In this document: one piece after another, positions 4,522-29,129 of the stretch
Position numbering within the stretch: the first letter of the stretch is position 1
How the letters are laid out: each line of letters starts with the position of its first letter
IMG/VR virus record: IMGVR_UViG_2737471841_000001
Location: 1 to 29,144 of that record
Length of the DNA: 29,144 nucleotides
Direction: 5' to 3' (one strand)
Source: a virus
Taxonomy: Duplodnaviria > Heunggongvirae > Uroviricota > Caudoviricetes
Notes under the pieces: model-generated
Database searches by the model: none
The model's input: only the letters and a program-made list of their open reading frames with translations
Told to the model about the DNA's origin: nothing
Program-made: the position numbers and the translations under genes

Positions 4522-4811
4522 TGGCTAACCTACGCAAAGAAGCGCGCAACAGAGAATGCCAGGTACGTATTTACGGCGTATGCAATGGTAATCCTGAAAC
4601 TACAGTTCTGGCACATTACCGGATGGCTGGAATTTGCGGAACGGGAATGAAGCCTGACGACCTGATCGGTGCATGGGCTTGTAGTGACTGCCACGCGGAG
4701 ATCGACCGACGCACCCATAATCTCGACAACAAAGACGCCAGACTTTACCACCTCGAAGGCGTGATCAGGACGCAGGCGATACTGCTGAAGGAGGGGAAGA
4801 TTAAGTCATGA
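4521..4811 (+). CDS. YbcO-like DUF1364 protein (Cys-rich putative nuclease)
   Basis: 96 aa, RECQVRIYGVCNGNPETTVLAHYR...CSDCHAEIDRR resembles E. coli DLP12 YbcO from memory; TAATG overlap with upstream gene. Confidence 0.8.
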   Translation: MANLRKEARNRECQVRIYGVCNGNPETTVLAHYRMAGICGTGMKPDDLIGAWACSDCHAEIDRRTHNLDNKDARLYHLEGVIRTQAILLKEGKIKS

Positions 4812-5170: not shown

Positions 5171-5355
5171 ACGCCACAATTCAAACGATACCAGAGCTTC
5201 TTATCCAGACACGAGGCAATCAGACTGAAGTGGCAAGGATGCTTTCCTGCGCAAGAGGAACAGTGCTCAAGTACAACCGAGACAGCAAAGGCGAGCGTCA
5301 TGTAATAGTTAACGGCGTCCTGATGGTCAAACAGGGCAAGAGGGGAAGACGATGA
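5167..5355 (+). CDS. ninH: NinH
   Basis: 62 aa, IPELLIQTRGNQTEVARMLSCARGTVLKY resembles lambda NinH; coupled start/stop. Confidence 0.8.
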   Translation: MNATIQTIPELLIQTRGNQTEVARMLSCARGTVLKYNRDSKGERHVIVNGVLMVKQGKRGRR

Positions 5356-5975
5356 GACTCGAAAGCGTAGCTAAATTTCATTCGCCAAAAAGCCCGATGA
5401 TGAGCGACTCACCACGGGCCACGGCTTCTGACTCTCTTTCCGGTACTGATGTGATGGCTGCTATGGGGATGGCGCAATCACAAGCCGGATTCGGAATGGC
5501 TGCATTCTGCGGTAAGCATGAACTCAGCCAGAACGACAAACAAAAGGCTATCAACTATCTGATGCAATTTGCACACAAGGTATCGGGGAAATACCGTGGT
5601 GTGGCAAAGCTCGAAGGAAATACTAAGGCAAAGGTACTGCAAGTGCTCGCAACATTCGCTTATGCGGATTATTGCCGTAGTGCCGCGACGCCGGGCGCAA
5701 GATGCAGAGATTGCCACGGTACAGGCCGTGCGGTTGATATAGCAAAAACAGAGCAGTGGGGGAGAGTTGTCGAGAAAGAGTGCGGAAGATGCAAAGGTGT
5801 CGGCTATTCAAGAATGCCAGCAAGCGCCGCATATCGCGCTGTGACGATGCTAATCCCAAACCTTACCCAACCAACCTGGTCACGCACTGTTAAGCCGCTG
5901 TATGACGCTCTGGTGGTGCAATGCCACAAGGAAGAGTCAATTGCAGACAATATTTTGAATGCAGTCACACGTTAG
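5352..5975 (+). CDS. Q: Late-gene antiterminator Q (lambda type)
   Basis: 207 aa; matches lambda Q as I recall it essentially throughout (MRLESVAKFHSPKSPMMSDSPRATASDS ... CRDCHGTGRAVD ... CGRCKGVGYSR). Confidence 0.95.
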   Translation: MRLESVAKFHSPKSPMMSDSPRATASDSLSGTDVMAAMGMAQSQAGFGMAAFCGKHELSQNDKQKAINYLMQFAHKVSGKYRGVAKLEGNTKAKVLQVLATFAYADYCRSAATPGARCRDCHGTGRAVDIAKTEQWGRVVEKECGRCKGVGYSRMPASAAYRAVTMLIPNLTQPTWSRTVKPLYDALVVQCHKEESIADNILNAVTR

Positions 5976-6017
5976 CAGCATGATTGCCACGGATGGCAAC
6001 ATATTAACGGCATGATA

Positions 6018-6053
6018 TTGACTTTTTGAATAAAGTTGGGTAAATTTGACTCA
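6018..6053 (+). promoter_or_regulatory. pR'-type late promoter with overlapping qut-like region
   Basis: TTGACT (6018-6023), 17-bp spacer, TAAATT (6041-6046), then TTGACTCAACGAT as in the lambda pR' initial transcribed region. Confidence 0.7.
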
Positions 6054-6410
6054 ACGATGGATAAATGCACTCGTTAAATAAAGCCCTGAGTTAATAGCTC
6101 GGGGCTTCTTGCGTTTTAAGCACGACCTTTCTGAAAGCGCATCAAACCAAATACCAGACAGACCAAAATAATCACCTTATCCGCTGTGGCTACGGTGCGG
6201 TGTGCTTTGCATAAAAGAAAACCAGCTCAATGGCTGGCTTCGTGAAAGCGGGTGGCAAGAGGTTGCGCTAACAACCTCATGCCGTTTTGCCCGTGCATAT
6301 CGGTCACGAACAAATCTGATTACTAAACACAGTAGCCTGGATTTGTTCTATCAGTAATCGACCTTATTCCTAATTAAATAGAGCAAATCCCCTCAATGAA
6401 GGGGTAGAGC

Positions 6411-6614
6411 ATGTACCGTATGGACAAAATCAGAGAATGGTTCAGTTACAGCTTCGGAGGACTGACTGCGATGGGTGGCATTCTCTCCCTGAATGACTGG
6501 GCTGTCATCATTGGTATTCTTTGTACTGTCGGCACATTTGGCATCAACTGGTACTACAAGCGCAAAGAGCGCGAGGACAGATTGAATGGCAATGTCACCG
6601 GCACTACGAAATAG
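6411..6614 (+). CDS. Class II holin, pinholin-like, with dual-start motif
   Basis: 67 aa; MYRMDK N-terminus (Met1 and Met4), two hydrophobic segments, charged C-terminus KRKEREDR; directly upstream of a SAR endolysin. Confidence 0.8.
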
Positions 6615-7089
6615 CGTAATAGCGGCGATAAGTGGCGGGGCTATTGCTATAGCATCTGTGTTAATCACTGGGCCAAGTGGTAACGATGGTCTGGAAGGTG
6701 TCAGCTACATACCATACAAAGATATTGTTGGTGTATGGACTGTATGTCACGGACATACCGGAAAAGACATCGTGCTCGGTAAAACGTATACCGAAGCAGA
6801 ATGCAAAGCCCTCCTGAATAAAGACCTTGCCACGGTCGCCAGACAAATTAACCCGTACATCAAAGTCGATATACCGGAAACAACGCGCGGCGCTCTTTAT
6901 TCGTTCGTCTATAACGTGGGCGCAGGCAATTTCAGAACATCGACGCTTCTTCGCAAAATCAACCAGGGCGATATCAATGGCGCATGTGACCAGCTACGTC
7001 GCTGGACATACGCTGGCGGTAAGCAATGGAAAGGGCTGATGACTCGCCGTGAGATTGAGCGTGAAGTCTGTTTGTGGGGGCAGCAATGA
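6586..7089 (+). CDS. SAR endolysin (T4-lysozyme-like muramidase with signal-arrest-release N-terminus)
   Basis: Gly/Ala-rich weakly hydrophobic N-terminus ([20 protein letters not shown]) followed by a lysozyme E-x8-D-x5-T triad ([16 protein letters not shown]). Confidence 0.9.
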
Positions 7090-7553
7090 GCAGAGTCACC
7101 GCGATTATCTCCGCTCTGGTTATCTGCATCATCGTTTGCCTGTCATGGGCTGTTAATCACTACCGTGATAACGCCATCGCCTACAAAGAACAGCGAGATA
7201 AAAAAGTCAGTGAGCTGAAGCAGGCGACCGCCACCATTACTGACATGCAGCAACGCCAGCGTGCTGCTGATGCACTCGATGCTAAATACACGAAGGAGTT
7301 AGCTGATGCGAAAGCTGAAAATGATGCTCTTCGGCGCAAGCTTGATAATGGTGGCAGGGTGCTCGTCAAAGGAAAATGCCCTGTGCCATCCTCAGCCAAA
7401 ACCTCCATCGCCTCCGGCATGGGCAATGATGCCACCGTCGAACTCTCTCCAGTTGCTGGACGAAACGTTCTCGATATCCGGGACGGAATTATCCGCGACC
7501 AAACAGCACTGAGAACGCTTCAGGAATACATCAGGACGCAATGCCTTCGATGA
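7086..7553 (+). CDS. Rz: Rz i-spanin
   Basis: [31 protein letters not shown] resembles lambda Rz; ATGA overlap with endolysin stop. An alternative GTG at 7074 exists. Confidence 0.85.
7306..7512 (+). CDS. Rz1: Rz1 o-spanin lipoprotein, embedded in Rz in the +1 frame
   Basis: Signal peptide with lipobox (LIMVAGC), proline-rich mature part ([11 protein letters not shown]); fully inside Rz. Confidence 0.8.
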
Positions 7554-7726
7554 TAGCGATAATTTTACTCATCATCCTTCACATCTGGCTCTGTAGACAG
7601 GGTGGTGCTCACTTCTGGAGTGAATCCAGATTAAACATCTCATTGCTGATGCTTGATATTGAGCATTTTGCGCGCGGTAAGGGGCTGCGTTGAGATAAGA
7701 GCCAGTCATTACAAATACCAGGATTT

Positions 7727-7752
7727 AGCCTCGCATTTGCGGGGCTTTTTTA
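7727..7752 (+). terminator. Intrinsic terminator downstream of the lysis cassette
   Basis: 8-bp stem AGCCTCGC / GCGGGGCT (one G-U pair), 4-nt loop, then TTTTTTAT. Confidence 0.6.
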
Positions 7753-7898
7753 TATCTGCAACAAACGCGCTTCACACGCGCGACTTCTGAACACAGAACC
7801 TTTCAGGATGACCCTTGAGGATGCCGGTTTGGTGATCGGTGCCTTTCTGTGGGCCGGAATCCTGTGTGACAAGGTTCATCACTAAAAGGTAATCACTG

Positions 7899-8429
7899 AT
7901 GAAGTACCCAACAGTTATTGTCAATGGTGTGTCCGTTCGTGTTGATGATGATGGACGCTACAACTTAAACGATCTCCATGCAGCAGCAGTTGCAAATGGA
8001 GAGGCTACAGAGCAACAGCGCCCAAGCCAGTTTTTGCGTAGCGCGCAGATAAAACGCTTCATAAAAGCACTGGAGGCCAAAGTGCAAAAAAGCACTTTGG
8101 AACAAATTCAACCACTTAAAATAATCAAAGGTGGTGCAGAACCAGGTGTGTGGGGTGTTGAACTTCTGGCAATCAGATATGCAGCATGGATTAAGCCGGA
8201 ATTTGAAATCGAAGTTTATGAAGTTTTCAAAACGGTCGTCCGTCTCGGCGTTGGCGCAATGTCCCGTCTGAATAGAATCGATCACATCATCAATACTGAA
8301 ACCAAAGCGATAAGCCAGTGCGCAAGCCAAATGGCTAAGTGGGGCGTTGGTGGGCGAAAAAGATTGCTTCATGTTGCACGTGAGAGAGCGGCAAATGAAG
8401 TGCAAATGTATTTGCCCGGAATGGTGTGA
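7899..8429 (+). CDS. KilA-N domain protein
   Basis: 176 aa; N-terminal VIVNGVSVRVDDDGRYNLNDLHAAA is typical of KilA-N/Bro-N DNA-binding domains. Confidence 0.75.
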   Translation: MKYPTVIVNGVSVRVDDDGRYNLNDLHAAAVANGEATEQQRPSQFLRSAQIKRFIKALEAKVQKSTLEQIQPLKIIKGGAEPGVWGVELLAIRYAAWIKPEFEIEVYEVFKTVVRLGVGAMSRLNRIDHIINTETKAISQCASQMAKWGVGGRKRLLHVARERAANEVQMYLPGMV

Positions 8430-8685
8430 TTTCGCAGGTTAATCCAGTTTTTGCATTACGGCAGTACCACGAAGCAACCCAAGCCAGTAAGTGGGGAAAT
8501 AACACTGGCAGCCACTGAAAGATGAACCTCCTGCCTTATGGCAAAAAAGATTCTTTGTGGTGGCGGACTGATGGAAAGACATCGGTTATTGCAGAGACCA
8601 TTCAATGAGTGGTCTCGACAATAGCTTATACCCTACACGGGATAACTTAACTGATATCCCTTTTAACGGATAAACGGAGCCAACA

Positions 8686-8928
8686 ATGGCAGAGATTATT
8701 CCCATGACTGAAGAACAGAAATTCCAGTTAGAGATTTACAAACTGGTCATGAACCAGAACGCAGCCGCAGAAGAAGCATTTCAGTTCATCGGCACTGACG
8801 AACTGAAGCTTGAGCTATTCAAAATTCACTTCCAGTCAGGCGGCGCTAATTCGGATATCACGATCCGCACATTCGAAGCGGTGCGTAAATCGAAGGAAGC
8901 GTTAGACCTGTTCACCACCGGAGCATGA
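8686..8928 (+). CDS. Hypothetical 80-aa protein upstream of small terminase
   Basis: Clean ORF with a GGAG-containing leader (acggataaacGGAGccaacaATG); no family recognised. Confidence 0.55.
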   Translation: MAEIIPMTEEQKFQLEIYKLVMNQNAAAEEAFQFIGTDELKLELFKIHFQSGGANSDITIRTFEAVRKSKEALDLFTTGA

Positions 8929-8957
8929 TGCTCAACCTGAAATAACGATTAAGTGAG

Positions 8958-9452
8958 ATGAATATGGCAGCACCAAAGGGCAACCGATTCTGGGAGGCCC
9001 GCAGTAGTCATGGGCGAAACCCTAAATTCGAATCGCCTGAGGCGCTGTGGGCTGCTTGTTGTGAATACTTCGAGTGGGCTGATGATAACCCGCTATGGGA
9101 GGGTAAGGTATTTTCATATCAGGGAGAAATAATTAAGGCTAATGTCCCTAAGATGCGAGCCATGACTATTTCAGGATTGTGTACCTTCCTTGATATCACC
9201 AGGCAAACATGGGGAACCTTCCGGTCAATGGAAGGTTTTTCTGACGTCACATCACGAGCGGAAGACATCATCTACGACCAGAAATTCTCTGGCGCAGCCG
9301 CTGACCTTCTCAACGCTAACATCATCGCCCGTGATTTGGGCCTCAAAGAGCAGTCGCAAGTTGAAGACGTGACACCTGATAAGGGAGATCGCGATAAGCG
9401 ACGCTCTCGTATCAAGGAGCTATTCAACCGTGGAACTGGACGCGATTCTTGA
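8958..9452 (+). CDS. 3: Terminase small subunit (P22 gp3-like)
   Basis: ~162-164 aa, [23 protein letters not shown]-terminus; immediately upstream of and overlapping the large terminase. Confidence 0.85.
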
Positions 9453-10929
9453 TAACCTGAGCGACGAAGAGCAAATCGAGTTGCTCGAGCTACTCGAAGA
9501 AGAAGAGAACTACCGGAACACACACCTGCTATATGAATTTACGCCATACAGCAAACAGCGTGAGTTCATCGACGCCGGACATGACTACCCAGAGCGATGT
9601 TTTATGGCTGGTAACCAGCTTGGTAAGTCATTTACTGGTGCTGCTGAAGTCGCGTTTCACCTTACAGGGCGTTATCCGGGCACAAAAGGCTATCCTGCTG
9701 ATGGTAAATATGGCGGTGAGTGGAAAGGTAAGCGTTTCTATGAGCCTGTTGTCTTCTGGATTGGTGGCGAGACAAACGAGACTGTAACCAAAACGACTCA
9801 ACGCATCCTGTGCGGTCGTATCGAAGAGAATGATGAGCCTGGCTACGGTTCCATACCGAAAGAAGACATCATTAGCTGGAAGAAGTCTCCTTTCTTTCCG
9901 AACCTTGTTGATCATCTTCTGGTTAAGCATCACACGGCTGATGGCGTTGAAGATGGCATTTCAATCTGCTACTTCAAGCCATACTCGCAAGGCCGTGCTC
10001 GCTGGCAGGGTGACACAATCCACGGCGTGTGGTTTGACGAAGAGCCACCATACAGCATTTATGGCGAAGGTCTTACCCGTACCAACAAATACGGGCAATT
10101 CTCAATTCTGACGTTTACCCCGCTGATGGGGATGTCTGACGTTGTTACCAAGTTCCTGAAGAATCCAAGCAAGTCGCAGAAAGTGGTCAACATGACCATC
10201 TACGACGCTGAGCACTACACAGACGAACAGAAAGAGCAAATCATCGCATCTTATCCTGAGCATGAGAGAGAGGCGCGTGCTCGCGGTATTCCTACGATGG
10301 GTAGCGGTCGAATCTTCCAGATACCGGAAGAGACGATTAAGTGCCAGCCGTTCGAGTGTCCTGATCACTTCTACGTAATTGGCGGGATGGATTTCGGATG
10401 GGATCACCCACAGGCGCAGGTTCAGCTTTGGTGGGATAAGGACGCAGACACAATCTACGTTTCACGCGTGTGGAAGGCGAAAGAAAAAACAGCCGTTCAG
10501 GCGTGGGGAGCTGTTAAATCATGGGCGCATAAAGTGCCAACCGCATGGCCTCATGACGGAAACCAGCACGAGAAGGGCGGCGGTGAGCAGCTCAAAGGGC
10601 AGTATGCGGACGCTGGATTTATGATGTTGCAGGAGCATGCGACATGGCCTGATGGCGGTAATGCTGTTGAGCCTGGAATCACTGAATTGCGCGACATGAT
10701 GCTTGATGGTCGCTTCAAAGTATTCAACACCTGTGAGCCATTCTTTGAGGAGTTCCGCCTCTATCACCGTGATGAAAACGGGAAGATCGTCAAGCTTAAC
10801 GACGACGTTCTCTCAGCCGTTCGCTATGCATACATGATGCGCCGCTTCGCCAAAATGATGCGCGACATCAAAAAACCAAAAGAGAAAAAGATACCAGCCC
10901 CAATCAGGCCCATCGCACGGAGAACTTAA
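9430..10929 (+). CDS. 2: Terminase large subunit (P22 gp2-like)
   Basis: 499 aa, GTG start overlapping terS; Walker A-like GNQLGKS; acidic N-terminus (LELLEEEE); position before portal. Confidence 0.9.
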
Positions 10930-19562: not shown

Positions 19563-20041
19563 TGGAAATAAAGCTCATCGATAATCCGGTGAAGCTTGCA
19601 GAATTCCTCAACAACCCGGCAAACACGGGAAATATCGTAGACAGTGGAGACAAATACTACATCAAGCCTGATGCGGTATACCTCGGCATCTACGAAGGAC
19701 TGATGCTGGTCGGAGTGCATGAAGTGCGTAACTTCTGGCATAGCGTTGTTGAATGCCATGCGGTGTACGACCCCGGATTCCGTGGCGAATATGCACTGCA
19801 AGGGCATCGATTATTCTGCAAATGGCTTCTCGAAAACTCACCATTCCTTAACAGCATCACTATGGTTCCTGACACCACGAAATACGGACGGTCAATTATC
19901 CGTTTGCTTGGCGCTACCCGTGTTGGTCACCTTGATGATGCTTATACCAGCAATGGAAAGCCTGTAGGCATCACGATTTATCAGTTACCGCGCTCAAAAT
20001 ACGAGGAGCTAACGAATGTTAATTTTCCAGATTGCCAATAA
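19562..20041 (+). CDS. 14: Tail/head assembly protein (P22 gp14-like)
   Basis: [40 protein letters not shown] resembles P22 gp14; ATG 19562 overlaps the needle stop. Confidence 0.8.
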   Translation: MEIKLIDNPVKLAEFLNNPANTGNIVDSGDKYYIKPDAVYLGIYEGLMLVGVHEVRNFWHSVVECHAVYDPGFRGEYALQGHRLFCKWLLENSPFLNSITMVPDTTKYGRSIIRLLGATRVGHLDDAYTSNGKPVGITIYQLPRSKYEELTNVNFPDCQ

Positions 20042-20690
20042 GCACCTCAGCAAAGCTGTTTACTGCAAAGGCGGCAGTGATGGCGGTTCAAAAGCCCAGG
20101 CACGCGCAACTGAAAAGGGTATCGAATTGCAGCGTGAAATGTGGCAAACGAACATGCAAAACCTCGCACCGTTCACACCACTCGCTCAACAGTACGTATC
20201 AGAGTTGCAGAATCTTTCCTCTCTTCAGGGGCAAGGTCAGGCGCTTAACCAGTATTACAACTCCCAGCAGTACAAAGACCTTGCTGGTCAGGCGCGTTAC
20301 CAGAGTCTGGCAGCAGCAGAGGCAACGGGTGGATTAGGCTCTACAGCAACAGGAAACCAGTTAGCATCAATCGCACCTACACTCGGTCAAAACTGGCTGT
20401 CAGGTCAGATGAACAACTACAACAATCTGGCAAACATTGGCCTTGGTGCTCTTACAGGTCAGGCAAACGCCGGGCAGAACTACGCTAACAACGTCAGCCA
20501 ATTGTATCAACAGCAGGCGGCAGCATCTGCGGCGAATGCTAACCGACCATCAGGATTGCAATCAGCTTTGGGCGGTGCCATGAGCGGTGCGGCATCAGGG
20601 GCGATGATTGGCTCTGTGGTGCCAGGAATAGGTACGGCTGTTGGCGCTATTGGTGGCGGCATTATCGGTGGTCTTGGATCATTGTTTTAA
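20016..20690 (+). CDS. 7: Ejection (internal virion) protein, gp7-like
   Basis: 224 aa, Gln/Asn/Gly-rich with Gly-rich hydrophobic C-terminus (GSVVPGIGTAVGAIGGGIIGGLGSLF); AGGAG SD; order after gp14. Confidence 0.8.
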   Translation: MLIFQIANKHLSKAVYCKGGSDGGSKAQARATEKGIELQREMWQTNMQNLAPFTPLAQQYVSELQNLSSLQGQGQALNQYYNSQQYKDLAGQARYQSLAAAEATGGLGSTATGNQLASIAPTLGQNWLSGQMNNYNNLANIGLGALTGQANAGQNYANNVSQLYQQQAAASAANANRPSGLQSALGGAMSGAASGAMIGSVVPGIGTAVGAIGGGIIGGLGSLF

Positions 20691-20699: not shown

Positions 20700-22172
20700 A
20701 TGGCTACTTGGCAACAAGGAATCAACTCAGGCGGTTTTCTTGCTGGTATCGGTGGGCAAAACTCAAATGCGCCAAAGGCAAGTGATGTAAGTGAGGCGTT
20801 GGCCTATATTCGCCAGAACAACGAAATGGAGCGTTCAGGTCGCAATAACATCGGCCTTCAGGCGTTGCAGGGACTTGGTAGTGTCGCTCAAACATATAAA
20901 GCCGCAAAGCAACAGGAAGCGGATGCTGCATTCCAAAAAGAATATGCGGTAGCCATCCAGTCAGGTGATCGACAGCAGGTGCGAGATCTGATGACCAAAT
21001 ATCCTCGTCAATTAGAGAAGATTCAGTCTGGTATGAAGTGGGCAGACGAAGACCAACGCAATTCTATAGGCACCTTAGCGGCTGGCGCACGCCTTGCGGC
21101 CTCGTCTCCAGAAGCAATGCAATCATGGCTGCAAAACAACGCCAAGGAACTGACTCGCGTCGGTGTTGACCCTAACAGCGTTGCTCAGATGTATCAGCAG
21201 AACCCTTCAGGATTTGGTGAGTTTGTTGATCACCTTGGAATGGCTGCTCTTGGTCCAATTGATTACTTCAATGTTCAGGACAAGATGGCTGGTCGTGAGA
21301 TTGATCGCGGGAAACTTGCAGAGACAATCCGCAGCAATCAGGCTGGAGAAGCACTTCAGGCGAGAGGGCAGGATATTAGCCGAGCAAATGCGTTAACGTC
21401 AGCATATGCACCAACAGCCGCAATGCAGAATTACAATCAGTACGCGCAAATGTTAAAGGCGGATCCAGATGGTGCAGCGGCATTTGCGGCAGCGGCGGGA
21501 ATTAATCCCAATGCTAAGAAATTACTTAAGGTTGAAACCAATCCTGATGGCTCGGTAACTAAGTATTACACCGATGGCAGCGAGGAAGCCGGAAAACTAA
21601 ACCAACCTATATCTGGTGATGGCATTAAACCAATTAGCTTGCCACAAGCGCAAAGCATCATAGATAAGGCTAATGAGGGTTCCAAGAAGGCGGCAGGATT
21701 TGCTTTGCGATTAAAAGATTCAATGGACTCAATGAATCAGCTTAGTAAAAGCATTGACCCTAAGCGAGTTGCATTAATAAATCGCTCTCTTGGTGATGGG
21801 ACTATTGCAAATTTAAGCCTATCACCAGCGGAGCAGCAATATATGGTAAATGCGAGAGACGCATTGTATGCAATTTTGCGCCCAGAAACAGGTGCAGCAA
21901 TTACTCTGCCAGAGATGCAGGAGTATTCCAAAATGTACCTGCCTCAGCCCGGTGATTCCAAGGCTGCTACTGAAACAAAAATGCGAAAAATGCAGGGCCA
22001 ATATAACTCATTACGTGGTCAGTCTGGTCGCGTTTATGATGCTTTGGTGGTTTCAAGTGCTGCAAATAGTCAACAACAGAGCAATAGCCAACAACCGACA
22101 AATACCCAACAGCAGCAGAGTCAATCCGGATCATATACCTCAAAATCAGGCATTCAATTTACGGTGGAATGA
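20700..22172 (+). CDS. 20: Ejection protein, gp20-like
   Basis: 490 aa, position and composition consistent with P22 gp20. Confidence 0.8.
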
Positions 22173-24301
22173 TGAAAGTAACTGCAAACGGTAAGACATT
22201 TACCTTCCCTGATGGTACGAGCACGGAAGATATTGGCACCGCCATTGATGAGTATTTTGCTGGTCAGGCTGTTCAGCAACAAACAGTTAATCAGGCCAAT
22301 AATGAACCAGCACGTGAAGAACTATCATTGATGCAACAAGCTGGCGATTGGCTCACAGGTGGTCAAAGTGCAGGGCAAATTGCAGAGCAGGCTGGTCGCG
22401 GTCTGGTAAACATACCATTTGACGTATTGCAGGGTGGCGCAAGTCTGATTAATGCAATCAGCCAAGGGCTTGGTGGCCCCAAGGTTTTGGATGATGTTTA
22501 TCGCCCTGTCGATCGACCGACAGACCCTTACGCGCAAGCCGGTGAAACAATTGGTGGGTATCTCCTGCCAATTGGCACAGCGGCAAAAGCTGCTGGAGCG
22601 CCAGCAAAGCTCGCTGTAGATATCGGTTCCGCAGGAAACATGATTGCAGGTTCTCTTGCTGATGCTGCAAATCAGGAGGGCGACTTTGCACAAAATGCTG
22701 CCATTAACGGTGGTATCAATATTGGTGCTCAAGGCGTTCTTTCTGGTGTCGGGCGCGTTATTGCGCCAAGGGTCTCACAGGCTCTTGGTGGTGCAGCACT
22801 GAATTCTGCTAATGATGTTTCCAGGATGGCAAAGTCAGGTGCTGGGCGTCAGTCAATTGCCAGTCAGGCCGCTAATGTGTCCGAAGATGTAGCAAAAGCG
22901 GCTGAGTCTGCTGGAATTGATATAAACGCATTAACACCAGGAATGCGATCTGGAAGTCGTGGAATTGCACAAGCCGAAGGCGCATTGGCATCAACACCAG
23001 GAATTGTTCAGGACGCCCATCAGGCAGCATTTAACGAAATATCATCAAAGTTAAGTCGAAACCTTGATGAATTTGGGGCCGCATCTGGAACGGCATCAGA
23101 AAAAAGTGCGGCTATAAAACAAAGGATTCTTCAAAATCTTGATCAGATGAAGGATGCCGAGCGCGCGGCATGGGATGACGTGCGGTCAACAATGCCAAAT
23201 CAAAAAGCAAGAATGCTAAATGGTAATGCTGTTATTCAGGCAGAGCGATCTGCTGGCATACCGCTTACTCCTGAAATGAAACAGTTTGTTCAGGCAAACA
23301 ATCAAGGTGGAGTAACATTTGATGGCATGAAAGCATGGAGAGCGAAATTTGCTGATGCGGAGCAAAAATATAAGCGTAGCGGAGAGGCAAATGCGGCAAG
23401 GAGAGCAGGGGAAATACGCCGGGCAATTACTGATGATATGCGCACAATGGCGGAAAACGGCGGATTTCTTGATGGCTGGCAGAAAGCTAATGATCTGTCT
23501 AAAGCGAGGTTATCAGCACAAGAGGGTGCAGAGTCTGTTTTCGGGCGTGATTTGGCAACAGATGCACTGATTACGAATGGAGTAAAATCCCTTCAATCAT
23601 CTTCAGCTAAAGGTCTTAATGGTCCTGCTGGATTCCATTCTATGATCCGCGCTCTGCCAGTATCAGAGCGTGTTCCTGCTATATCATCAATGCTGCAAGA
23701 TGCTATCTCGCATGGTGTCCGTGGTGGCAAATCTGATGCTGCAGGAATTAACCATATCGCAGAGATACTCACGCCACAAAATGTAAAAGCCATTAGCCGA
23801 TATTCCTCAGAGCTTGGAAGAATTGCTGATGCATATGGCACTCTTGCAAGAGCAGCAGTGAAACCTCAGCAGTATATTGAAAGAACAGGGAGAACTGCCA
23901 ATGTACTACGCGATCTTGATGCTGGTTTATCCAACGTTACATCAACAGTGTTAAATGCAATTGCCAACTCAACATCAGGTGCCATTGTTGGTGGAGCAGG
24001 AGGTGGGGGCGTTGCTGGCGCTGCCGCTGGCGCTTTAGTTGGCGCTGGGTTAAAAGGCGCTGTATCTAAAATTGCTACCACGCGTAGCGGTCGATATGCG
24101 ATAGAGAAAGCAGTTCAGGAAGCCACGAAAGCAGTAAGAGCTGGCGGAAGTAAAGAAGCATTAGCGGCGGCGGAACGCAGATTTATGGCAAATAAAGCCG
24201 CCGTAAAAGCAATACGAGATGCTATTGGTAGCGATGAATTCAATCGCTTGTCGAGAGCTGGTATTGTCGCCTCGTTAAGCGGTATGAATGAATATGAATA
24301 G
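22169..24301 (+). CDS. 16: Ejection protein, gp16-like
   Basis: 710 aa, Ala/Gly-rich; ATGA overlap with gp20; last gene of the rightward virion operon. Confidence 0.8.
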
Positions 24302-24303: not shown

Positions 24304-24789
24304 TTATCTAATGTTGCTGCTACTGTTGCATGTTACCGTGTTTCCAAATCCTGAATTGCAGTTTGTATATGTGTCAACGCGTGTTGGGTAAGGTTGAGTT
24401 ATAACAGGCTGGCGCGCTTTTTGCTCGATCGCTTGCATTGTGTTTACAGCCTGATAATTCAATAAAGCCTGCTGGAATGCTTGGCTTTGTGCTATTTGTT
24501 GGGCTTGTTCTTGGCTTTGTAATTGAACATAAAGATTCTGAAGCTCAAGTCTTGCCTGTGCGTCACTTATCTTGCCTTCATCGACACCTTGCCCGAGCAT
24601 CTTTGCAGCAAGGACATACAGCTTAGGTGTTGGTGCTGATGCCATGCGTGAGTCGTTCTTCACACTGGCATCAAGGCAATTAGCCATATCGCTAAGCTTT
24701 TGATAGCGTTGTTCGCAACTTGCTTGATAGTCACTTACTTTTGCGCATCCAACCAGCAGAAGCGGGATAATTAACAGTGATTTTTTCAT
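24304..24789 (-). CDS. Secreted lipoprotein of unknown function (candidate lysogeny-expressed moron)
   Basis: 161 aa from ATG 24789 (AAGGAG 9 nt upstream); signal peptide with lipobox MKKSLLIIPLLLVGC; four further Cys; Gln-rich helical middle. Confidence 0.7.
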   Translation of the reverse strand: MKKSLLIIPLLLVGCAKVSDYQASCEQRYQKLSDMANCLDASVKNDSRMASAPTPKLYVLAAKMLGQGVDEGKISDAQARLELQNLYVQLQSQEQAQQIAQSQAFQQALLNYQAVNTMQAIEQKARQPVITQPYPTRVDTYTNCNSGFGNTVTCNSSSNIR

Positions 24790-24859
24790 ATGGTTAACTC
24801 TCCTTAGTTTTTCACAGGATATCATGAAAGCAATGCCATTTTAGCCGGAAACTAGATTT

Positions 24860-25159
24860 CTATGTTTCCTTTTTATTATTGCTATACATGGTCTTAAGCG
24901 TTTCAAAAACCATTTTCTTAACCATATCAGATTGTTGTTCTGCCATACGCTCTGCATCGTCAATGTAAACTGATGCAGAGCTTTGTTTAGCCAATGATTC
25001 TTCAATCGCTGCAATTATCTCTGAGTTCAGCGACCTGTTATTCATCTTCGCGCGCTGTTTAATTTTCGCGTGGAGTTCATGCGGAAGTCTCAAGTGAAAC
25101 TGCGCCTCGTCGTATTTGCTGTACATCCTTGATGCCTCACCAGTTGGGTGGAATGGCAT
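24860..25159 (-). CDS. mnt: Mnt-like ribbon-helix-helix (Arc/MetJ family) repressor
   Basis: RLPHELHAKIKQRAKMNNRSLNSEIIAAIEESL ... DDAERMAEQQSDMVKKMVFETLK resembles P22 Mnt; start may be the internal ATG at 25126. Confidence 0.8.
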   Translation of the reverse strand: MPFHPTGEASRMYSKYDEAQFHLRLPHELHAKIKQRAKMNNRSLNSEIIAAIEESLAKQSSASVYIDDAERMAEQQSDMVKKMVFETLKTMYSNNKKET

Positions 25160-25199: not shown

Positions 25200-25222
25200 A
25201 TGCAACCACATCATGGTTGCAT
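25200..25222. promoter_or_regulatory. 23-bp perfect palindrome, candidate operator between mnt and tailspike
   Basis: ATGCAACCA-CATCA-TGGTTGCAT (9-bp arms, 5-bp spacer) in the 88-bp divergent region, 26 bp upstream of the tailspike ATG. Confidence 0.4.
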
Positions 25223-25247
25223 CATATCATTCGTCTGGAGCAATGAA

Positions 25248-27305
25248 ATGTCAGATATCACCGCAAATGTTGTGGTAAGCATGCCTTCTCAACTCTTCAC
25301 TATGGCTCGTTCTTTTAAAGCGGTAGCCAATGGCGAAATTTATATCGGGAAAATTGACACTGACCCGGTAAATCCTGAAAACCGGATTCAGGTTTATGTA
25401 GAGAACGAAGACGGCTCTCACGTTCCTGTTTCGCAACCAATCATCATTAACGCTGCTGGTTACCCGGTATATAACGGACAGATTGCCAAGTTCGTAACTG
25501 TGCAAGGCCATTCTATGGCTGTTTATGATGCGTATGGTGCACAGCAATTCTATTTTCCTAATGTGCTGAAGTACGATCCTGATCAGTTAAGGCAGGAGCT
25601 GGCGGGGCCAAACGGCGTAGATCTGGTAAACGGAGCGGCAAAGCAGACTGATGTTAATAAGCTGAACATTCACACTAGTGGCTACGTCAATGTGCTTGAG
25701 TATATCCCTGAAAACCTGCATCAGTACCTTACAGACTTGGCTCAGTCACAAACGAACGCAGGGGACCTAATTTCCTATCTTAATGCAGCGTCAGCATACT
25801 GCGAAAAGAACCACAAAGACCTTGTATTTCCGTTCGGATATTACTTTGTATCAAACACCTTCATGTTACCTGCTGGGGTAAAGGTGATAGGTCTTGGCTA
25901 CCCGTACATCCTTGCTCTAACCCCATTTAACGCTTCAAATATTATTGTAAGTTGCGATAAAACAGGACAGCCAACTTATGATATGGATATGTTTCATATA
26001 AACGGTCCTGGCCCTAGCAACCTCGACATGGTGGGGTTGCGAGTCGGCGGATGTCGTAATAGCAAATTTTCAAGGATAATCGTTACCAGTTGCTTCTCTG
26101 CCGGGGTAGAGGTTTACCCAACAGTAGCAACATCAGGAGATGTTGAAAACCTACACCTTGACCATGTCTGGACCGTACTGTCTGGAGGGGTGCGCTTTAA
26201 AGCTAACGCCTCTATAGCTAGGGGCAATATCACGGATGCAACTGTATCAAACTGTCAATTAACGACTGGAGATGCAACCTTGTCCGGACCTCCAGCTATC
26301 ACTATTACAGGGGCGCCTGGCAGGCAGATATTCGGGATTGCTTTTAAACGGGTATTTACACAAACGACTGACCAGGACCATATAGTAGTAAATCCAAATG
26401 GTGGAAGCGTATTCCATAATACATTTAGTGATATAAGTGGTGAGTCATGGACTATTGCCGCAGGCGGTATTTCTGGCTCATTCGCTAAGAATGCGCTATA
26501 TGTACTCGATGGTGCATTTACCACCAATTCATTCCGCGACTTCTATAAACAGGGTTTGCCTGGCAACGGTATTACTTTAGGTGTTGGCTCATCTGGTAAT
26601 CTGTTTGACGGGCTTCGATTCATGGACAGAAATGTTGTTGGATATAACAACAAGTGGTTAATCATACCATCTGGAGCAAACTCAAACAGTTTTCACGCCT
26701 GCTACTTCGATGGTTGTTTTAATCGCGCCGATTCTGGATATGGTGGCGTAGCGGCTAATTATGTATTCAGAGCTTTTGACGGTAAGATTTCTGACTTGAG
26801 CGGTAGCACAAAATTTGACACACCGGAGATAAGAGACGTTTCTCCAGTTCTCATTAAGAGGTCAACGATATTCGCTATTAGTGGCAACCAATTAGTTAAC
26901 TATCCAGTAACGGGATGCGCCTTTGCAACGACTGCCGATGGCATTAGCGTTGCCGTCCCTGCTGGTAACACCCCCTACTTTCTTACCATACCTTTTACCC
27001 CCACTGCGGGATTCGCAGGTAAATTTATCGGACTTACTATCAAATATGTATGCGGGGCCATGAATGGTATGACCCTGTCGGCGGATATCTGCGGCGCAGG
27101 TTCCGGAGTAACAGATTTAACCACGGGTAAAGCAAATGTGTTTAGCATGTATGGCGCTTACAACTCAGATAACAAAACCGTCACATTAACATTTGGGGGG
27201 GACAGAACGGCGCAGGCTAACATGGCTTTACAAGATATTATAATCACCGAAGGTGCTAACATTCCTTACATACCAAACTTCCGAAAAATATACATTGAGA
27301 GTTAA
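25248..27305 (+). CDS. 9: Tailspike (P22 gp9-like head-binding N-terminus, divergent receptor-binding domain)
   Basis: ATG 25248 with GGAG 9 nt upstream; [11 protein letters not shown]...[21 protein letters not shown]...[13 protein letters not shown]...VLKYDPDQ matches the gp9 head-binding domain; remainder differs from P22 gp9. Confidence 0.9.
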
Positions 27306-27420: not shown

Positions 27421-27804
27421 GGATTCCCGAGTCCAGCATAAGACTACGTTGAACAACGCATATCGCTCGACAAGCGCATCATAACCAGGCCAGCGGCTAC
27501 GTACTTCATGCGAGCAGGTTCGACACACTACCGGGAAGGCATCATTAATGGAGCGCTACTCGTCGTTGATGCGTCACTTACGCCATGCGACGGCTCATTG
27601 CTGGTATGCAGAATGGAAAGTGAGCTGAGGATAAAGCGATATCGAACTCATCCAAAGCCCCACCTTGAGGATTTGCAAACAGGAAGGCGAGAAGAGATAC
27701 CTGCATACGATGACGGAACTAGCCCGGATGCGATATTTGGTGTTATCACTTACATCATCAACGATTCGCGTTCTGGTGAGTTTGGTGATTGTCCGGTGAC
27801 ATAG
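27421..27804 (+). pseudogene. UmuD'-like (S24 LexA-type) gene remnant, interrupted by an in-frame stop
   Basis: Frame 1 reads GFPSPA-stop-DYVEQRISLDKRIITRPAATYFMRAGSTHYREG...; GFPSPAADYVEQRI is the UmuD region just after its cleavage site. TAA at 27439-27441; the ASGDSM-equivalent reads AGSTHY. Confidence 0.55.
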
Positions 27805-27810: not shown

Positions 27811-28968
27811 TTATGCCACCATCCCATCAAGCCAGTCCGCCCACCATTGCATCATCTCCCTGCGCTTATCGAGATACTGAGCATGGTTGTAAATCCCACG
27901 CACAGATCCGCCGTTGGCATGTGCCAGTTGCACTTCAATAGCGTCAGCAGGCCATTCGTGCTCGTTCATAATTGTGCTGAATTCATGCCTGAATCCGTGA
28001 CCGCTTTCCAGACCCTCATAGCCGATTTGTTTGATCACAAGCAATACCGCGTTCTCGCAGATTGGCTTCTTCTTATCGTTGCGCCCGGCAAAAACAAACT
28101 CTGACACTGGTTTAGTGATTGAGCTTAGCGTAGTGAGAAGTTCAACTACCTGGTCTGACATAGGAACCACATGAATTTTGCGTCCCTTCATCACATTGGC
28201 GTCGATGGTGATAATCCTGTTTTCAAAATCGACGTTCTTCCATAGCATGGAACGAAGCTCTTTTGTTCTGAGGGCTGTGTAGCGTAAAACTTTGGTCGCA
28301 ATGAGCGATACGATACTTCCTGAAAATGTTGCCAGTGCTTTATTGAATGCCGGGATCTGGTCTGCAGGCAGAAACGGGAAGTTCTTCTTGCGGTATCCCT
28401 TCATGGCGTCAGCAAGGTCAGGTGCCGGGTTATATTTAGCCCTACCAGTGACAATAGCGTAACGGAAAACCTCGCCGCATCTTCTGCGGGCTTTATTTGC
28501 TCGCTCCATTGCACCGCGATCTTCAAATCTGCGGATTACTTCCAGCAGTTGCATCGGCTCAATATCCTGAATCTCAAGACCGCCGATGATGGGTAAAATG
28601 TCGTCATCAAACATTTTTGCAAGTTCATTTGCATAGCCTACTGACCAGACTTGCTTCTTGTGCTCGTACCATTCCTTGTAAATGGCGCTAAAGGAATTGT
28701 TGTTAGACGAAGCCTTTTTCGCCTTTACCGGATCGATGCCAACCGAGATCTCTTTCCTCGCAGTCCATGCTTTATCCCTTGCCTCTTGCAAAGTCATAAG
28801 CGGATATTTTCCGACGGTCAGGATTTTCTCCTTACCGTCAATCTTGTATCGAAGCTGCCATACCTTTTTCCCTGATACAGGGACATAAAGGTACAGGCCA
28901 TTACCATCGAGTAGGCGGTATGGTTTTTCTTTCGGCTTTGCTGCTTCAATCTGCTTAACGGTGAGCAT
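27811..28968 (-). CDS. int: Tyrosine integrase (IntS / P4-like family with N-terminal arm-binding domain)
   Basis: 385 aa from ATG 28968 (MLTVKQIEAAKPKEKPYRLLDGNGLYLYVPVSGKK...), closely resembling E. coli IntS as I recall it; an in-frame GTG at 29004 is an alternative start. Confidence 0.9.
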   Translation of the reverse strand: MLTVKQIEAAKPKEKPYRLLDGNGLYLYVPVSGKKVWQLRYKIDGKEKILTVGKYPLMTLQEARDKAWTARKEISVGIDPVKAKKASSNNNSFSAIYKEWYEHKKQVWSVGYANELAKMFDDDILPIIGGLEIQDIEPMQLLEVIRRFEDRGAMERANKARRRCGEVFRYAIVTGRAKYNPAPDLADAMKGYRKKNFPFLPADQIPAFNKALATFSGSIVSLIATKVLRYTALRTKELRSMLWKNVDFENRIITIDANVMKGRKIHVVPMSDQVVELLTTLSSITKPVSEFVFAGRNDKKKPICENAVLLVIKQIGYEGLESGHGFRHEFSTIMNEHEWPADAIEVQLAHANGGSVRGIYNHAQYLDKRREMMQWWADWLDGMVA

Positions 28969-29129
28969 GGGTAAAAATCCGGTGGGTAAAATTATTTTAT
29001 CCACTTTTTACCCGTCATGGAGTGCGGCTGTCAACGATCTGACGCGAACCATGACGAACCGTGAATATACGGAAGGCTTGATATTCAGGGGATTTTGCGG
29101 ACTGGTACGGATGGTAGCGAACTGATAAA

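What the first reader, a model, noticed from the sequence alone, without database searches (positions are those of the whole stretch)
24304..25159. Leftward mnt-like repressor followed by a Cys-containing, Gln-rich lipoprotein
This sits between the ejection-protein genes and the tailspike, where P22 carries sieA and immI. An Mnt-like repressor gene is followed on the same strand by a 161-aa lipoprotein with a clear lipobox and strong SD. The lipoprotein has no family I recognise. Its position, opposite orientation to the late operon and lipoprotein nature fit a prophage-expressed envelope factor such as superinfection exclusion or receptor masking.
Basis: inference. Interest (0 to 1): 0.75.

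Follow-up and report, generated by a model that had tools for sequence, protein, structure and literature searches.

The report
Uncharacterised prophage lipoprotein in sieA slot
A P22-like prophage carries, exactly where phage P22 keeps its superinfection-exclusion gene sieA, a gene for a small outer-membrane lipoprotein of no known family; its near-identical copy in another E. coli strain is transcribed in the lysogen, so it is a good but untested candidate for a new phage-entry block.

Summary
On the minus strand, an Mnt-type repressor gene (24860-25126) is followed by a 161-aa lipoprotein gene (24304-24789). The lipoprotein gene ends 2 nt from the stop of the last ejection-protein gene (gp16 homologue), which converges on it.

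This is the position and orientation of sieA in P22. None of 87 related loci carries both genes.

The protein has a canonical lipobox, never Asp at +2, and four further conserved Cys. It has no match in Pfam, NCBIfam or PADLOC. Its PHROGs family (phrog_6067) has unknown function. A confident model found no structural relative in the PDB or among viral models.

Published RNA-seq of the 97.5%-identical copy in E. coli LF82 shows transcription 5- to about 80-fold above the adjacent late genes.

The gene is intact in decayed prophages and present in 186 of 5426 complete E. coli genomes. A distant relative again sits beside a gp16-like gene in an unrelated viral contig. Other distant relatives lie in ordinary chromosomal neighbourhoods.

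Best reading: a prophage-expressed outer-membrane lipoprotein that blocks DNA delivery by incoming phages (confidence 0.42 for the function; no experiment exists). Main rival: a host-fitness lipoprotein like Bor.

The parts
24304..24789 (-). Lipoprotein gene (161 aa precursor, 147 aa mature; stop codon 24306-24304)
   Evidence: ORF and sequence; phrog_6067 full-length match at 1.6e-110; 94 homologous clusters
24745..24789 (-). Signal peptide with lipobox LVGC; the lipid-modified Cys15 codon is 24747-24745; +2 is Ala, which by the +2 rule predicts sorting to the outer membrane
   Evidence: Sequence. Cys15 is invariant in A1 and A2 and present in at least 90% of A5. The +2 residue is never Asp in 218 homologues
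24505..24744 (-). Conserved N-terminal helical domain (residues 16-95) with Cys25 and Cys38, a presumed disulfide
   Evidence: Invariant columns; AF2 block-mean pLDDT 68 for residues 11-20 and 89-95 for residues 21-90
24379..24504 (-). Gln-rich region (residues 96-137): the predicted long helix (76-125) continues to residue 125 and is followed by a low-confidence spacer; length varies across the family
   Evidence: AF2 helix 76-125; composition; length variation in alignments
24307..24378 (-). C-terminal Cys-closed beta-hairpin module (residues 138-161; Cys144 and Cys154), exchanged independently of the rest of the protein
   Evidence: Family motif C-x3-G-x4-C-x-[ST]-[YR] at the C-terminus; module swapping; AF2 strands 138-146 and 152-160 at moderate confidence
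24800..24805 (-). Shine-Dalgarno AAGGAG, 10 nt before the ATG
   Evidence: Sequence; conserved upstream of the gene in most loci
24816..24824 (-). Candidate extended -10 promoter element TGaTATCCT for the lipoprotein gene
   Evidence: Read from the sequence. TG[AG]TATCCT accompanies the gene in 61 of 87 loci, in four different upstream contexts. It was not found by the consensus scan. Function is inferred
24860..25126 (-). mnt-like repressor gene (88 aa), without arc or ant partners in this prophage
   Evidence: Pfam Arc 8.4e-15 and Repressor_Mnt 4e-12; RefSeq annotation of the identical gene; tblastn architecture survey
25200..25222 (.). Perfect 9-bp inverted repeat ATGCAACCA-N5-TGGTTGCAT between mnt and the tailspike gene; candidate Mnt operator
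   Evidence: 0 matches in 100 shuffles; the position is analogous to the P22 mnt operator. Function is inferred
25226..25254 (-). Sigma-70-like promoter upstream of mnt (CTGACA-17-AATGAT); it could also drive the lipoprotein gene by read-through
   Evidence: The number of promoter-like sites in the region is not above the shuffle expectation, so this is weak. No terminator-like site lies between mnt and the lipoprotein gene
22169..24301 (+). Ejection ('DNA transfer') protein, P22 gp16 homologue, convergent neighbour
   Evidence: phrog_770 4.5e-229; synteny in 87 loci and in four other genera
25248..27305 (+). Tailspike with P22-type head-binding domain
   Evidence: Pfam Head_binding 4.7e-66

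Best explanation
The 161-aa ORF is a real accessory ('moron') gene of a P22-like prophage.

Shown or well supported:
- Its product is exported, lipid-modified at Cys15 and, by the +2 rule, sorted to the periplasmic face of the outer membrane.
- It has a highly conserved disulfide-containing helical domain next to the anchor.
- A long Gln-rich helix follows.
- A small disulfide-closed C-terminal hairpin ends the protein, and this hairpin is swapped between alleles like a specificity module.
- It is transcribed in the lysogen independently of the late operon.

Inferred function:
It protects the lysogen by blocking genome delivery of incoming phages at the outer-membrane or periplasm stage. It would be a non-homologous replacement for the inner-membrane protein SieA. 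Two mechanisms are possible. It may bind the trans-periplasmic conduit built by ejection proteins (gp7, gp20, gp16) or the tail needle. Alternatively it may lock an outer-membrane component those phages need, as T5 Llp does with FhuA.

The target and the phenotype are inferred, not shown.
For: Envelope features:
- Canonical lipobox; +2 is never Asp in 218 homologues; four conserved Cys in the mature protein.

Position relative to sieA:
- Same slot, orientation and size as P22 sieA.
- 0 of 87 loci also carry type-A sieA. The gene always converges on gp16, whatever the gp16 type.
- The same synteny holds in Serratia, Yersinia, Morganella and Klebsiella.

Expression:
- The gene is antisense to the late operon.
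- A TGnTATCCT element plus SD travels with it in 61 of 87 loci, in four upstream contexts.
- The orthologue is transcribed in the LF82 lysogen 5- to about 80-fold above the neighbouring late gene (PMC9928086 S1/S4).

Host benefit:
- The gene is intact in decayed prophages whose ejection and tailspike genes are pseudogenes or truncated.

Modularity:
- The C-terminal module recombines independently. For example, P0032 is 100% identical in the linker and 21% in the C-terminus.

Deep linkage:
- A relative about 30% identical lies beside, and convergent with, a protein that hhalign links to gp16 (probability 88.7%, E 2.6e-6, 327 columns) in an unrelated viral contig.

Precedent:
- SieA blocks DNA delivery, and its escape mutations map to gp16 and gp20 (PMC10883804).
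Against: - No exclusion experiment exists for any family member.
- There is no homology or fold similarity to any known exclusion protein: SieA hhalign probability 0.09%; Cor and Llp match only at the signal peptide.
- LF82 data show induction in macrophages and in cell-culture medium. That fits a host-interaction role. The authors did not class the gene as a moron, because it reached 4.5x rather than 5x background in LB.
- Three of the distant relatives examined sit in ordinary chromosomal neighbourhoods, so the ancestral function may be cellular.
- The slot is a general hotspot that also holds unrelated secreted proteins and lipoproteins.
Confidence: 0.42

Rival explanations
1. Host-fitness or virulence moron. 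The outer-membrane lipoprotein benefits the lysogen in the animal host or under envelope stress (serum, macrophage or bile survival), as proposed for lambda Bor or plasmid TraT. It would have no role against phages.
For: - In LF82 the orthologue rises from log2 about 6 in LB to 8 in cell-culture medium and 10.3 at 1 h inside macrophages (log2FC MB6 vs LB 2.55, q 4.7e-27).
- It is present in pathogen lineages: O104:H4 C227-11, AIEC LF82 and ST131.
- It is retained in decayed prophages.
- Distant relatives are chromosomal.
Against: - There is no homology to Bor or TraT; no Pfam hit.
- The gene is tightly and anciently linked to the gp16 end of podovirus structural modules, including an environmental viral contig.
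- It never co-occurs with sieA in that slot (0 of 87 loci).
- Family members occur in environmental bacteria with no animal host.
Confidence: 0.25
2. Periplasmic protective inhibitor or orphan immunity protein. The lipoprotein neutralises a periplasm-acting enzyme. The target could be a peptidoglycan hydrolase, in the way MliC/PliC-type lipoproteins inhibit lysozymes. It could also be a bacteriocin or type VI effector, or the murein-degrading domain of incoming ejection proteins.
For: - Outer-membrane anchor and disulfides place it in the periplasm.
- Some gp16 homologues next to it carry an SLT lytic transglycosylase domain (Klebsiella).
- One distant relative lies beside TIR and STAND genes, and another lies in a satellite-like element next to a T5orf172 gene.
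Against: - There is no sequence or fold similarity to known inhibitor or immunity families.
- No toxin gene is adjacent.
- The window's own gp16 has no Pfam SLT hit.
- The gene occurs with gp16 types both with and without that domain.
Confidence: 0.12
3. Lytic-cycle helper of the phage itself. Made by the infected or induced cell, it would prevent progeny from wasting DNA on cell debris or vesicles (the second role of T5 Llp), or assist release. It would not protect the lysogen.
For: - It lies next to virion genes.
- T5 Llp and T1 Cor are thought to act this way (statement in PMC11990801).
- Gally is spontaneously induced at a high rate (PMC9928086), so some 'lysogen' transcript could come from induced cells.
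Against: - It is antisense to the late operon.
- In LF82 its transcript rises while late structural genes stay at background or fall.
- It is intact in prophages that can no longer make virions.
- Many fully functional P22-like phages lack it.
- The lysis cassette has its own Rz spanin.
Confidence: 0.08

Closest known systems
P22 SieA (superinfection exclusion A; Leavitt et al. 2024, PMC10883804)
   Same: - Same genomic slot: immediately after, and convergent with, the last ejection-protein gene, before mnt and the tailspike.
- Similar size (164 vs 161 aa).
- Prophage-expressed and dispensable for lytic growth.
- The two never co-occur in the loci surveyed.
   Different: - No sequence relationship (hhalign probability 0.09%).
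- SieA is a multi-pass inner-membrane protein. This protein is a lipobox lipoprotein predicted for the outer membrane, with no membrane helix beyond the signal peptide.
- The exclusion phenotype is shown for SieA and untested here.
T5 Llp and T1/phi80/N15 Cor (outer-membrane lipoproteins that exclude phages by inactivating FhuA)
   Same: Small phage-encoded outer-membrane lipoproteins with disulfide(s) that act from the periplasmic side. They are the closest precedent for how this protein might work.
   Different: - No homology. Cor (phrog_1119) matches only over the signal peptide (E 0.035). The Llp structure 8a60_B matches only over the signal peptide (E 0.25).
- This protein is twice as long and has a helical domain, a long helix and a hairpin.
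- P22-like phages do not use FhuA. No target is known.
Lambda Bor and other prophage lipoprotein morons
   Same: A prophage-borne lipoprotein expressed in the lysogen and induced in host-like conditions. In LF82, Bor of prophage Perceval is likewise induced in DMEM (PMC9928086).
   Different: No Pfam Lambda_Bor or TraT hit. The architecture and the genomic slot differ.
Braun's lipoprotein Lpp (architectural analogy only)
   Same: An outer-membrane-anchored lipoprotein with a long helix that could project a C-terminal element toward the peptidoglycan layer. The predicted 50-residue helix is about 75 A long.
   Different: No homology. This protein has an additional globular N-terminal domain and a Cys hairpin. 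No C-terminal Lys is available for murein linkage. Oligomeric state is unknown, and the heptad pattern is weak.

Membership tests
Bacterial lipoprotein (signal peptidase II substrate) | N-terminal signal peptide with lipobox [LVI][ASTVI][GAS]C | tested here: met
   MKK-SLLIIPLLL-VG-C15. A lipobox is found in 218 of 239 family sequences.
Bacterial lipoprotein (signal peptidase II substrate) | Outer-membrane sorting: no Asp at +2 (Lol avoidance rule of Enterobacteriaceae) | tested here: met
   +2 is Ala here. Across the family: A 158, T 19, V 12, S 9, never D.
Bacterial lipoprotein (signal peptidase II substrate) | Actual acylation and membrane localisation | not testable with these tools
   Needs globomycin or palmitate labelling and membrane fractionation.
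Mnt/Arc ribbon-helix-helix repressors (the upstream gene) | Arc-like RHH DNA-binding domain plus Mnt C-terminal tetramerisation domain | tested here: met
   PF03869 8.4e-15 (residues 7-49) and PF11423 4e-12 (residues 57-81).
Mnt/Arc ribbon-helix-helix repressors (the upstream gene) | Part of an immI module with arc and ant, controlling Pant through a palindromic operator | tested here: not met
   No arc or ant lies between mnt and the tailspike in the window. A perfect palindrome at 25200-25222 is a candidate operator only.
SieA superinfection exclusion proteins (types A-C) | Sequence homology to SieA | tested here: not met
   hhalign probability 0.09% against P22 SieA (type A). Types B and C were not compared directly.
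SieA superinfection exclusion proteins (types A-C) | Polytopic inner-membrane protein | tested here: not met
   Lipoprotein signal peptide only. The AF2 model is soluble helical plus hairpin.
SieA superinfection exclusion proteins (types A-C) | Located between gene 16 and gene 9 homologues of a P22-like prophage, leftward | tested here: met
SieA superinfection exclusion proteins (types A-C) | Blocks DNA delivery by P22-like phages | not testable with these tools
   Needs plating and injection assays.
Cor / Llp exclusion lipoproteins | Homology to Cor (phrog_1119) or Llp | tested here: not met
   Only signal-peptide-level matches.
Bor / TraT lipoproteins | Pfam Lambda_Bor or TraT domain | tested here: not met
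   No hit at E<=1.
Moron (autonomously expressed prophage accessory gene) | Transcribed in the lysogen while neighbouring lytic genes are silent | tested here: met
   Literature data for the 97.5%-identical orthologue: log2 5.96-10.3 vs 3.6-4.15. Not measured for this prophage itself.
Moron (autonomously expressed prophage accessory gene) | Own promoter | tested here: inconclusive
   A TGnTATCCT element travels with the gene in 61 of 87 loci, but the consensus scan did not call it. Read-through from the mnt promoter is also possible.
Moron (autonomously expressed prophage accessory gene) | Dispensable for the phage life cycle | tested here: met
   Absent from functional relatives Sf101, IME10, Dewey/Huey/Louie, HK620 and Sf6.
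Spanins (o-spanin or u-spanin lipoproteins) | Encoded in the lysis cassette; u-spanins have a C-terminal membrane helix | tested here: not met
   The lysis cassette with lysozyme and Rz is at 6586-7553. This gene is 17 kb away on the other strand and has no C-terminal hydrophobic helix.

The most novel reading that the evidence does not exclude
This is the founding member of a new, anciently phage-associated family of outer-membrane-tethered lipoproteins. They would guard the periplasm against podovirus genome delivery. The swappable C-terminal Cys hairpin would capture the gp16/gp20 ejection-protein conduit or the tail needle as it crosses the periplasm. That would be an outer-membrane counterpart of SieA, genetically linked to the gp16 gene from enterobacterial P22-like phages out to distant environmental phages.
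Probability: 0.2. Interest if true: 0.75.

Novelty: new variant of a known kind. Interest (0 to 1): 0.5.

Why it matters
How short-tailed phages build a DNA conduit across the periplasm is poorly understood. SieA is so far the only protein shown to interfere with the P22-type conduit.

A second, unrelated factor sits in the same genomic slot but is anchored to the other membrane. It would give an independent genetic handle on that process, because escape mutants should map to the contacted phage protein.

It would also explain why about two thirds of P22-like phages lack sieA.

The gene is common: 3.4% of complete E. coli genomes, including O104:H4, LF82 and ST131, and several other Enterobacterales. 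It could therefore affect the host range of therapeutic or typing phages.

If it instead proves to be a macrophage-induced envelope factor, it becomes a candidate prophage-borne fitness determinant of pathogenic E. coli.

Tried and rejected
Family searches:
- Pfam, NCBIfam and PADLOC scans of the protein and of 9-10 distant relatives gave only sub-threshold or signal-peptide-level matches.

Structure searches:
- Foldseek on the better model (pLDDT 78.5) found nothing at E<=1e-3 in the PDB or BFVD.
- The afdb50 library was unavailable.
- A PDB sequence-profile search found nothing beyond signal peptides.

Locus searches:
- The search for related loci failed with the broad alignments A2 and A3, which had no conserved stretch.
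- The narrower alignment A4 found only 1 viral locus and 5 genome loci.
- The second homologous-protein run mostly re-listed the close family.

The gp16-like neighbour in viral contig L095:
- BLASTP and PHROGs did not identify the L095 neighbour as an ejection protein.
- Only profile-profile comparison did.

Ideas rejected or set aside:
- Spanin: rejected, because it lies on the wrong strand and far from the lysis cassette, Rz is present elsewhere, and there is no C-terminal membrane helix.
- The gene depends on mnt: rejected, because there is no mnt in the Yersinia and Morganella loci.
- The gene is matched to a particular gp16 type: rejected, because at least three types occur with near-identical lipoproteins.
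- Inhibition of an SLT domain in gp16: not supported for this window, because Pfam finds none.

Other null results:
- Rfam found no RNA family in the window.
- Literature searches by accession, locus tag and topic found no study of the protein.
Full report
**What is in the sequence**

The window is a segment of a P22-like (Lederbergvirus-type) prophage. It holds the following, in order:
- a primase-helicase gene and the Q antiterminator;
- a lysis cassette with lysozyme and Rz (6586-7553);
- terminase, portal and an Sf6-type needle knob;
- three ejection-protein genes: gp7 homologue 20016-20690, gp20 homologue 20700-22172, gp16 homologue 22169-24301;
- a tailspike with the P22 head-binding domain (25248-27305);
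- an integrase (27811-29004, minus strand).

Two leftward genes lie between gp16 and the tailspike.

The first is an Mnt-type repressor gene. Pfam gives Arc 8.4e-15 and Repressor_Mnt 4e-12. The longest ORF runs to 25159. The likely start is ATG 25126, preceded by GGTGAGG. This gives 88 aa, as RefSeq annotates the identical gene.

The second is a 161-aa ORF (24789-24304). It has AAGGAG 10 nt upstream and the N-terminus MKKSLLIIPLLLVG|CAK. That is a textbook lipoprotein signal peptide with Ala at +2. The mature protein is 14.3% Gln and has Cys at positions 25, 38, 144 and 154. Its stop codon lies 2 nt from the stop of the converging gp16 gene.

**Is it a real gene?**

Yes. It matches phrog_6067 (function unknown) over its full length at 1.6e-110.

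It has 94 homologous clusters at E<=1e-3 in a 5.8-billion-protein collection. They come from Escherichia, Salmonella phage, Citrobacter, Serratia, Klebsiella, Cronobacter, Yersinia, Pectobacterium, Morganella, Providencia, Proteus phage and Tatumella.

A profile search of 1.8 billion cluster representatives finds 248 clusters.

Traits across 239 fetched sequences:
- the lipobox is present in 218;
- the +2 residue is never Asp;
- 161 have exactly four further Cys;
- Cys25 and Cys38 are invariant;
- the protein typically ends in the motif C-x3-G-x4-C-x-[ST]-[YR].

The gene occurs in 186 of 5426 complete E. coli genomes, always on the chromosome. These include O104:H4 C227-11, AIEC LF82 and an ST131 strain.

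**Architecture**

With a 130-sequence alignment, AlphaFold2 gives mean pLDDT 78.5. The model shows three parts:
- a compact helical domain next to the lipid anchor (residues about 17-95, block-mean pLDDT 89-95 over residues 21-90);
- a continuous helix from residue 76 to 125, whose second half is the Gln-rich stretch;
- a C-terminal beta-hairpin (138-146 and 152-160) at moderate confidence, bracketed by Cys144 and Cys154.

The linker is much shorter in distant relatives of 125-140 aa.

The C-terminal module behaves as an exchangeable unit. P0032 is 100% identical to the window protein in residues 96-127 but only 21% identical in 128-161. P0018, P0020 and P0023 are 72-76% identical in the N-domain but 91-94% identical in the C-terminal module.

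**Comparison with known families**

No known family matches:
- There is no significant hit in Pfam, NCBIfam or PADLOC for the protein or for nine to ten distant relatives.
- Foldseek against the PDB and BFVD gives nothing at E <= 1e-3.
- A profile search of PDB sequences touches T5 Llp (8a60_B) only over the signal peptide (E 0.25).
- The Cor family (phrog_1119) also matches only over the signal peptide.
- Profile comparison with P22 SieA gives probability 0.09%.

So the protein is not a member of the SieA, Cor, Llp, Bor or TraT families. It is not a spanin either, because the lysis cassette with Rz is elsewhere, on the other strand.

**Genomic context**

In P22, gene 16 is followed 22 bp later by the convergent sieA gene (164 aa, own promoter). 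Then come orf59a, mnt, arc, ant and gene 9. The lipoprotein gene occupies exactly the sieA position and orientation.

I surveyed 87 loci by tblastn: 80 IMG/VR contigs, phages Gally, 720R6, VSe13 and Brookers, three E. coli chromosomes, and the window.
- The lipoprotein gene converges on a gp16 homologue in every locus whose sequence extends that far.
- This holds for at least three to four very different gp16 sequence types.
- None of the 87 loci carries type-A sieA.

The upstream side is variable. It can hold:
- mnt directly, as in the window;
- an orf59a-like gene;
- a 104-aa secreted protein (O104:H4 type);
- a second, PEGA-like lipoprotein on the opposite strand (Gally type);
- any of these, with or without arc and ant.

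The same gp7-gp20-gp16 then convergent-lipoprotein arrangement appears in Yersinia ruckeri, Morganella and Klebsiella. It also appears in a decayed Serratia marcescens prophage. In Yersinia and Morganella no mnt is present.

Related functional phages have an empty slot (Dewey) or mnt only (Sf101).

The gene is intact in prophage remnants. In one, the ejection-protein and tailspike genes are pseudogenes or IS-disrupted (E. coli EC2641). In another, gp16 is truncated (Serratia). This argues that the gene serves the host rather than virion production.

**Expression**

In the window, no terminator-like site separates mnt from the lipoprotein gene. A weak sigma-70-like site lies upstream of mnt.

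Directly upstream of the lipoprotein gene there is an extended -10-like element, TGaTATCCT (24824-24816). It lies 26 nt before the ATG. This element, with the SD, accompanies the gene in 61 of 87 loci and in four unrelated upstream contexts. That is the pattern expected of a promoter-gene cassette. This is inference.

Direct evidence exists for the 97.5%-identical orthologue GALLYPH_13 (LF82_138) of the Gally prophage. Strand-specific RNA-seq tables in Misson et al. 2023 (PMC9928086, S1 and S4) give these values of log2(fpkm+5):

| Condition code (as in the tables) | GALLYPH_13 (two replicates) |
|---|---|
| BLB (LB, stationary phase) | 6.29 / 5.96 |
| B1 | 7.87 / 8.15 |
| B6 | 8.02 / 8.22 |
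| MB1 | 10.29 / 10.30 |
| MB6 (inside macrophages, 6 h) | 8.70 / 8.54 |

I did not read the table legend for B1, B6 and MB1. By analogy I take them to be bacteria alone at 1 h and 6 h, and bacteria inside macrophages at 1 h.

The adjacent late gene GALLYPH_12 stays at 3.6-4.15 in all conditions.

In overnight LB the gene was 4.5-fold above the prophage median (70.2 vs 15.6). That is just under the authors' 5-fold cut-off (78.1), which is why the paper states that Gally has no morons.

Caveat: Gally has a different sequence upstream of the gene than the window does.

**The wider family**

Distant relatives (25-40% identical, same lipobox, N-domain and Cys hairpin) are rare in reference genomes. 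One scan of 100,044 species gave five loci, including Desulfatitalea and a Burkholderiales MAG. Their contexts are mixed.

Phage-like, mobile or defence-like contexts:
- One lies in a GC-rich viral contig (L095) next to an integrase. It converges on a 692-aa protein that heads a 244/455/692-aa gene series. Profile-profile comparison links that protein to the gp16 family at 88.7% probability (E 2.6e-6, 327 aligned columns). BLASTP and PHROGs did not detect this link.
- One converges on a 4839-aa polyvalent protein.
- One lies in a small integrase/AlpA/primase element beside a T5orf172 gene.
- One lies beside TIR and STAND/WD40 genes.

Ordinary chromosomal contexts:
- Three others lie among housekeeping or envelope genes.

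The family is therefore not exclusively phage-borne. Still, its association with the gp16 end of podovirus structural modules seems to reach well beyond enterobacterial P22-like phages.

**Most likely function and mechanism**

Shown or strongly supported:
- it is a real, conserved, exported lipoprotein;
- it is predicted for the inner leaflet of the outer membrane;
- it carries two probable disulfides;
- it is encoded by an accessory gene in the sieA slot;
- it is transcribed in a lysogen independently of late genes;
- it is kept in decayed prophages.

Inferred: it protects the lysogen against incoming phages at the stage of genome delivery.

The precedent is SieA. SieA blocks DNA delivery by P22-like phages, and escape from it requires changes in the C-terminal parts of gp16 and gp20 (PMC10883804). 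Only 22 of 66 sequenced P22-like phages carry sieA. The same paper reports more diverse sieA-like genes in prophages and does not discuss what else occupies the slot.

A lipoprotein hanging from the outer membrane on a helix about 75 A long could meet the needle or the gp20/gp16 conduit as it emerges into the periplasm. Its variable, disulfide-locked tip would suit that role. Alternatively it could lock an outer-membrane protein from below, as T5 Llp does with FhuA.

I give the exclusion function 0.42 overall, and the specific conduit-targeting version about 0.2.

**Rivals**

- Bor-like host-fitness lipoprotein (0.25). It is favoured by the macrophage and culture-medium induction and by the chromosomal relatives.
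- Periplasmic enzyme inhibitor or orphan immunity protein (0.12). Some neighbouring gp16 proteins carry an SLT domain, but the window's does not by Pfam.
- Lytic-cycle helper (0.08). This is disfavoured by the antisense orientation, by expression without late genes, and by retention in defective prophages.

**Novelty and verdict**

The protein is annotated only as 'hypothetical protein' or 'lipoprotein'. It has no Pfam, NCBIfam or PADLOC family, no structural relative, and no mention in the searchable literature.

Prophage-encoded exclusion lipoproteins are a known kind of thing. This would be a new, unrelated family with a different architecture, in a phage group where only an inner-membrane excluder is known. 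I therefore rate it a new variant of a known kind.

The 'prophage-expressed envelope factor' reading is supported. The exclusion function remains an untested, reasonable hypothesis. Interest is 0.5: a clean, cheap experiment could turn it into a useful probe of podovirus DNA delivery, but nothing here overturns expectations.

Noticed in passing
window 25200-25222: A perfect 9-bp inverted repeat, ATGCAACCA-N5-TGGTTGCAT, lies between the orphan mnt gene and the tailspike start (0 matches in 100 shuffles). It sits where P22 has its mnt operator but has a different sequence. Only 2 of 100 fetched loci share it exactly. What an Mnt repressor controls in a prophage with no arc or ant is unclear; it may be the tailspike or its own promoter.
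   Followed up: partly
L001:2947-3366 (-) (phage Gally GALLYPH_14; not in the window): Gally-type loci carry a second lipoprotein gene between the 161-aa lipoprotein gene and mnt, on the opposite strand. It encodes 139 aa (MKRIIGVVAGAILLSGC...) with a weak PEGA hit (E 0.0037). In LF82 RNA-seq it is even more strongly expressed (log2 up to 11.0) and, like its neighbour, was not listed as a moron.
   Followed up: partly
L006:5511-5825 (-) (E. coli O104:H4 C227-11 prophage): The O104:H4-type prophage has a 104-aa protein with a cleavable-looking signal peptide (MKRIAILLILFFSTIVFA...). It lies between mnt and the lipoprotein gene, 25 bp upstream of the latter, and looks operonic. It has no Pfam hit.
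   Followed up: no
L005 (E. coli EC2641) and L103/L104 (Serratia marcescens): Heavily decayed P22-like prophages keep the lipoprotein gene intact. In EC2641, which also keeps mnt, the ejection-protein genes are truncated pseudogenes and the tailspike is split by an IS3 element. In Serratia, gp16 is truncated next to unrelated genes. This suggests selection on the host side.
   Followed up: partly
L095:6990-7342 (+) and 7758-9836 (-) (IMGVR_UViG_3300037515_000246): In a GC-rich environmental viral contig, a distant family member (114 aa, ends ...CRRVQNVLYCRSY) converges on a 692-aa protein. hhalign links that protein to the P22 gp16 family (88.7%, E 2.6e-6). Upstream of it lie 455-aa and 244-aa genes whose sizes mimic gp20 and gp7. 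The host and phage type are unknown.
   Followed up: partly
L111:212-589 (+) and 590-8589 (-): Another distant family member abuts, convergently and with no gap, a 4839-aa polyvalent protein (ddrB-ParB, Eco57I, helicase and MuF_C domains). Proteins of this kind are thought (from my own knowledge of the literature; not checked here) to be delivered with the DNA of mobile elements. The repeated pairing with large injected proteins may be meaningful.
   Followed up: no
window 24825 (ATG) / OV696608.1 GALLYPH_13: The longest-ORF start (MISCEKLRRVNH-MKK...) is used in the Gally GenBank record (516 nt). It falls inside the putative -10 element and precedes the SD, so the annotated N-terminal extension is probably wrong.
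   Followed up: yes
P0093, P0081, P0019, P0079 (E. coli and metagenome proteins): Several database entries are truncated or chimeric alleles of the lipoprotein. One is an in-frame fusion of its first 43 residues to an ERF recombinase fragment. Others switch to unrelated sequence after residues 71, about 83 or 130. These are signs of deletions or insertions in some prophages.
   Followed up: partly
window 27508-27804 (+) and 7899-8429 (+): A 98-aa ORF between the tailspike and the integrase has no Pfam hit. A KilA-N domain ORF (176 aa) sits between the lysis cassette and the terminase genes. Both are further accessory-gene candidates in this prophage.
   Followed up: no
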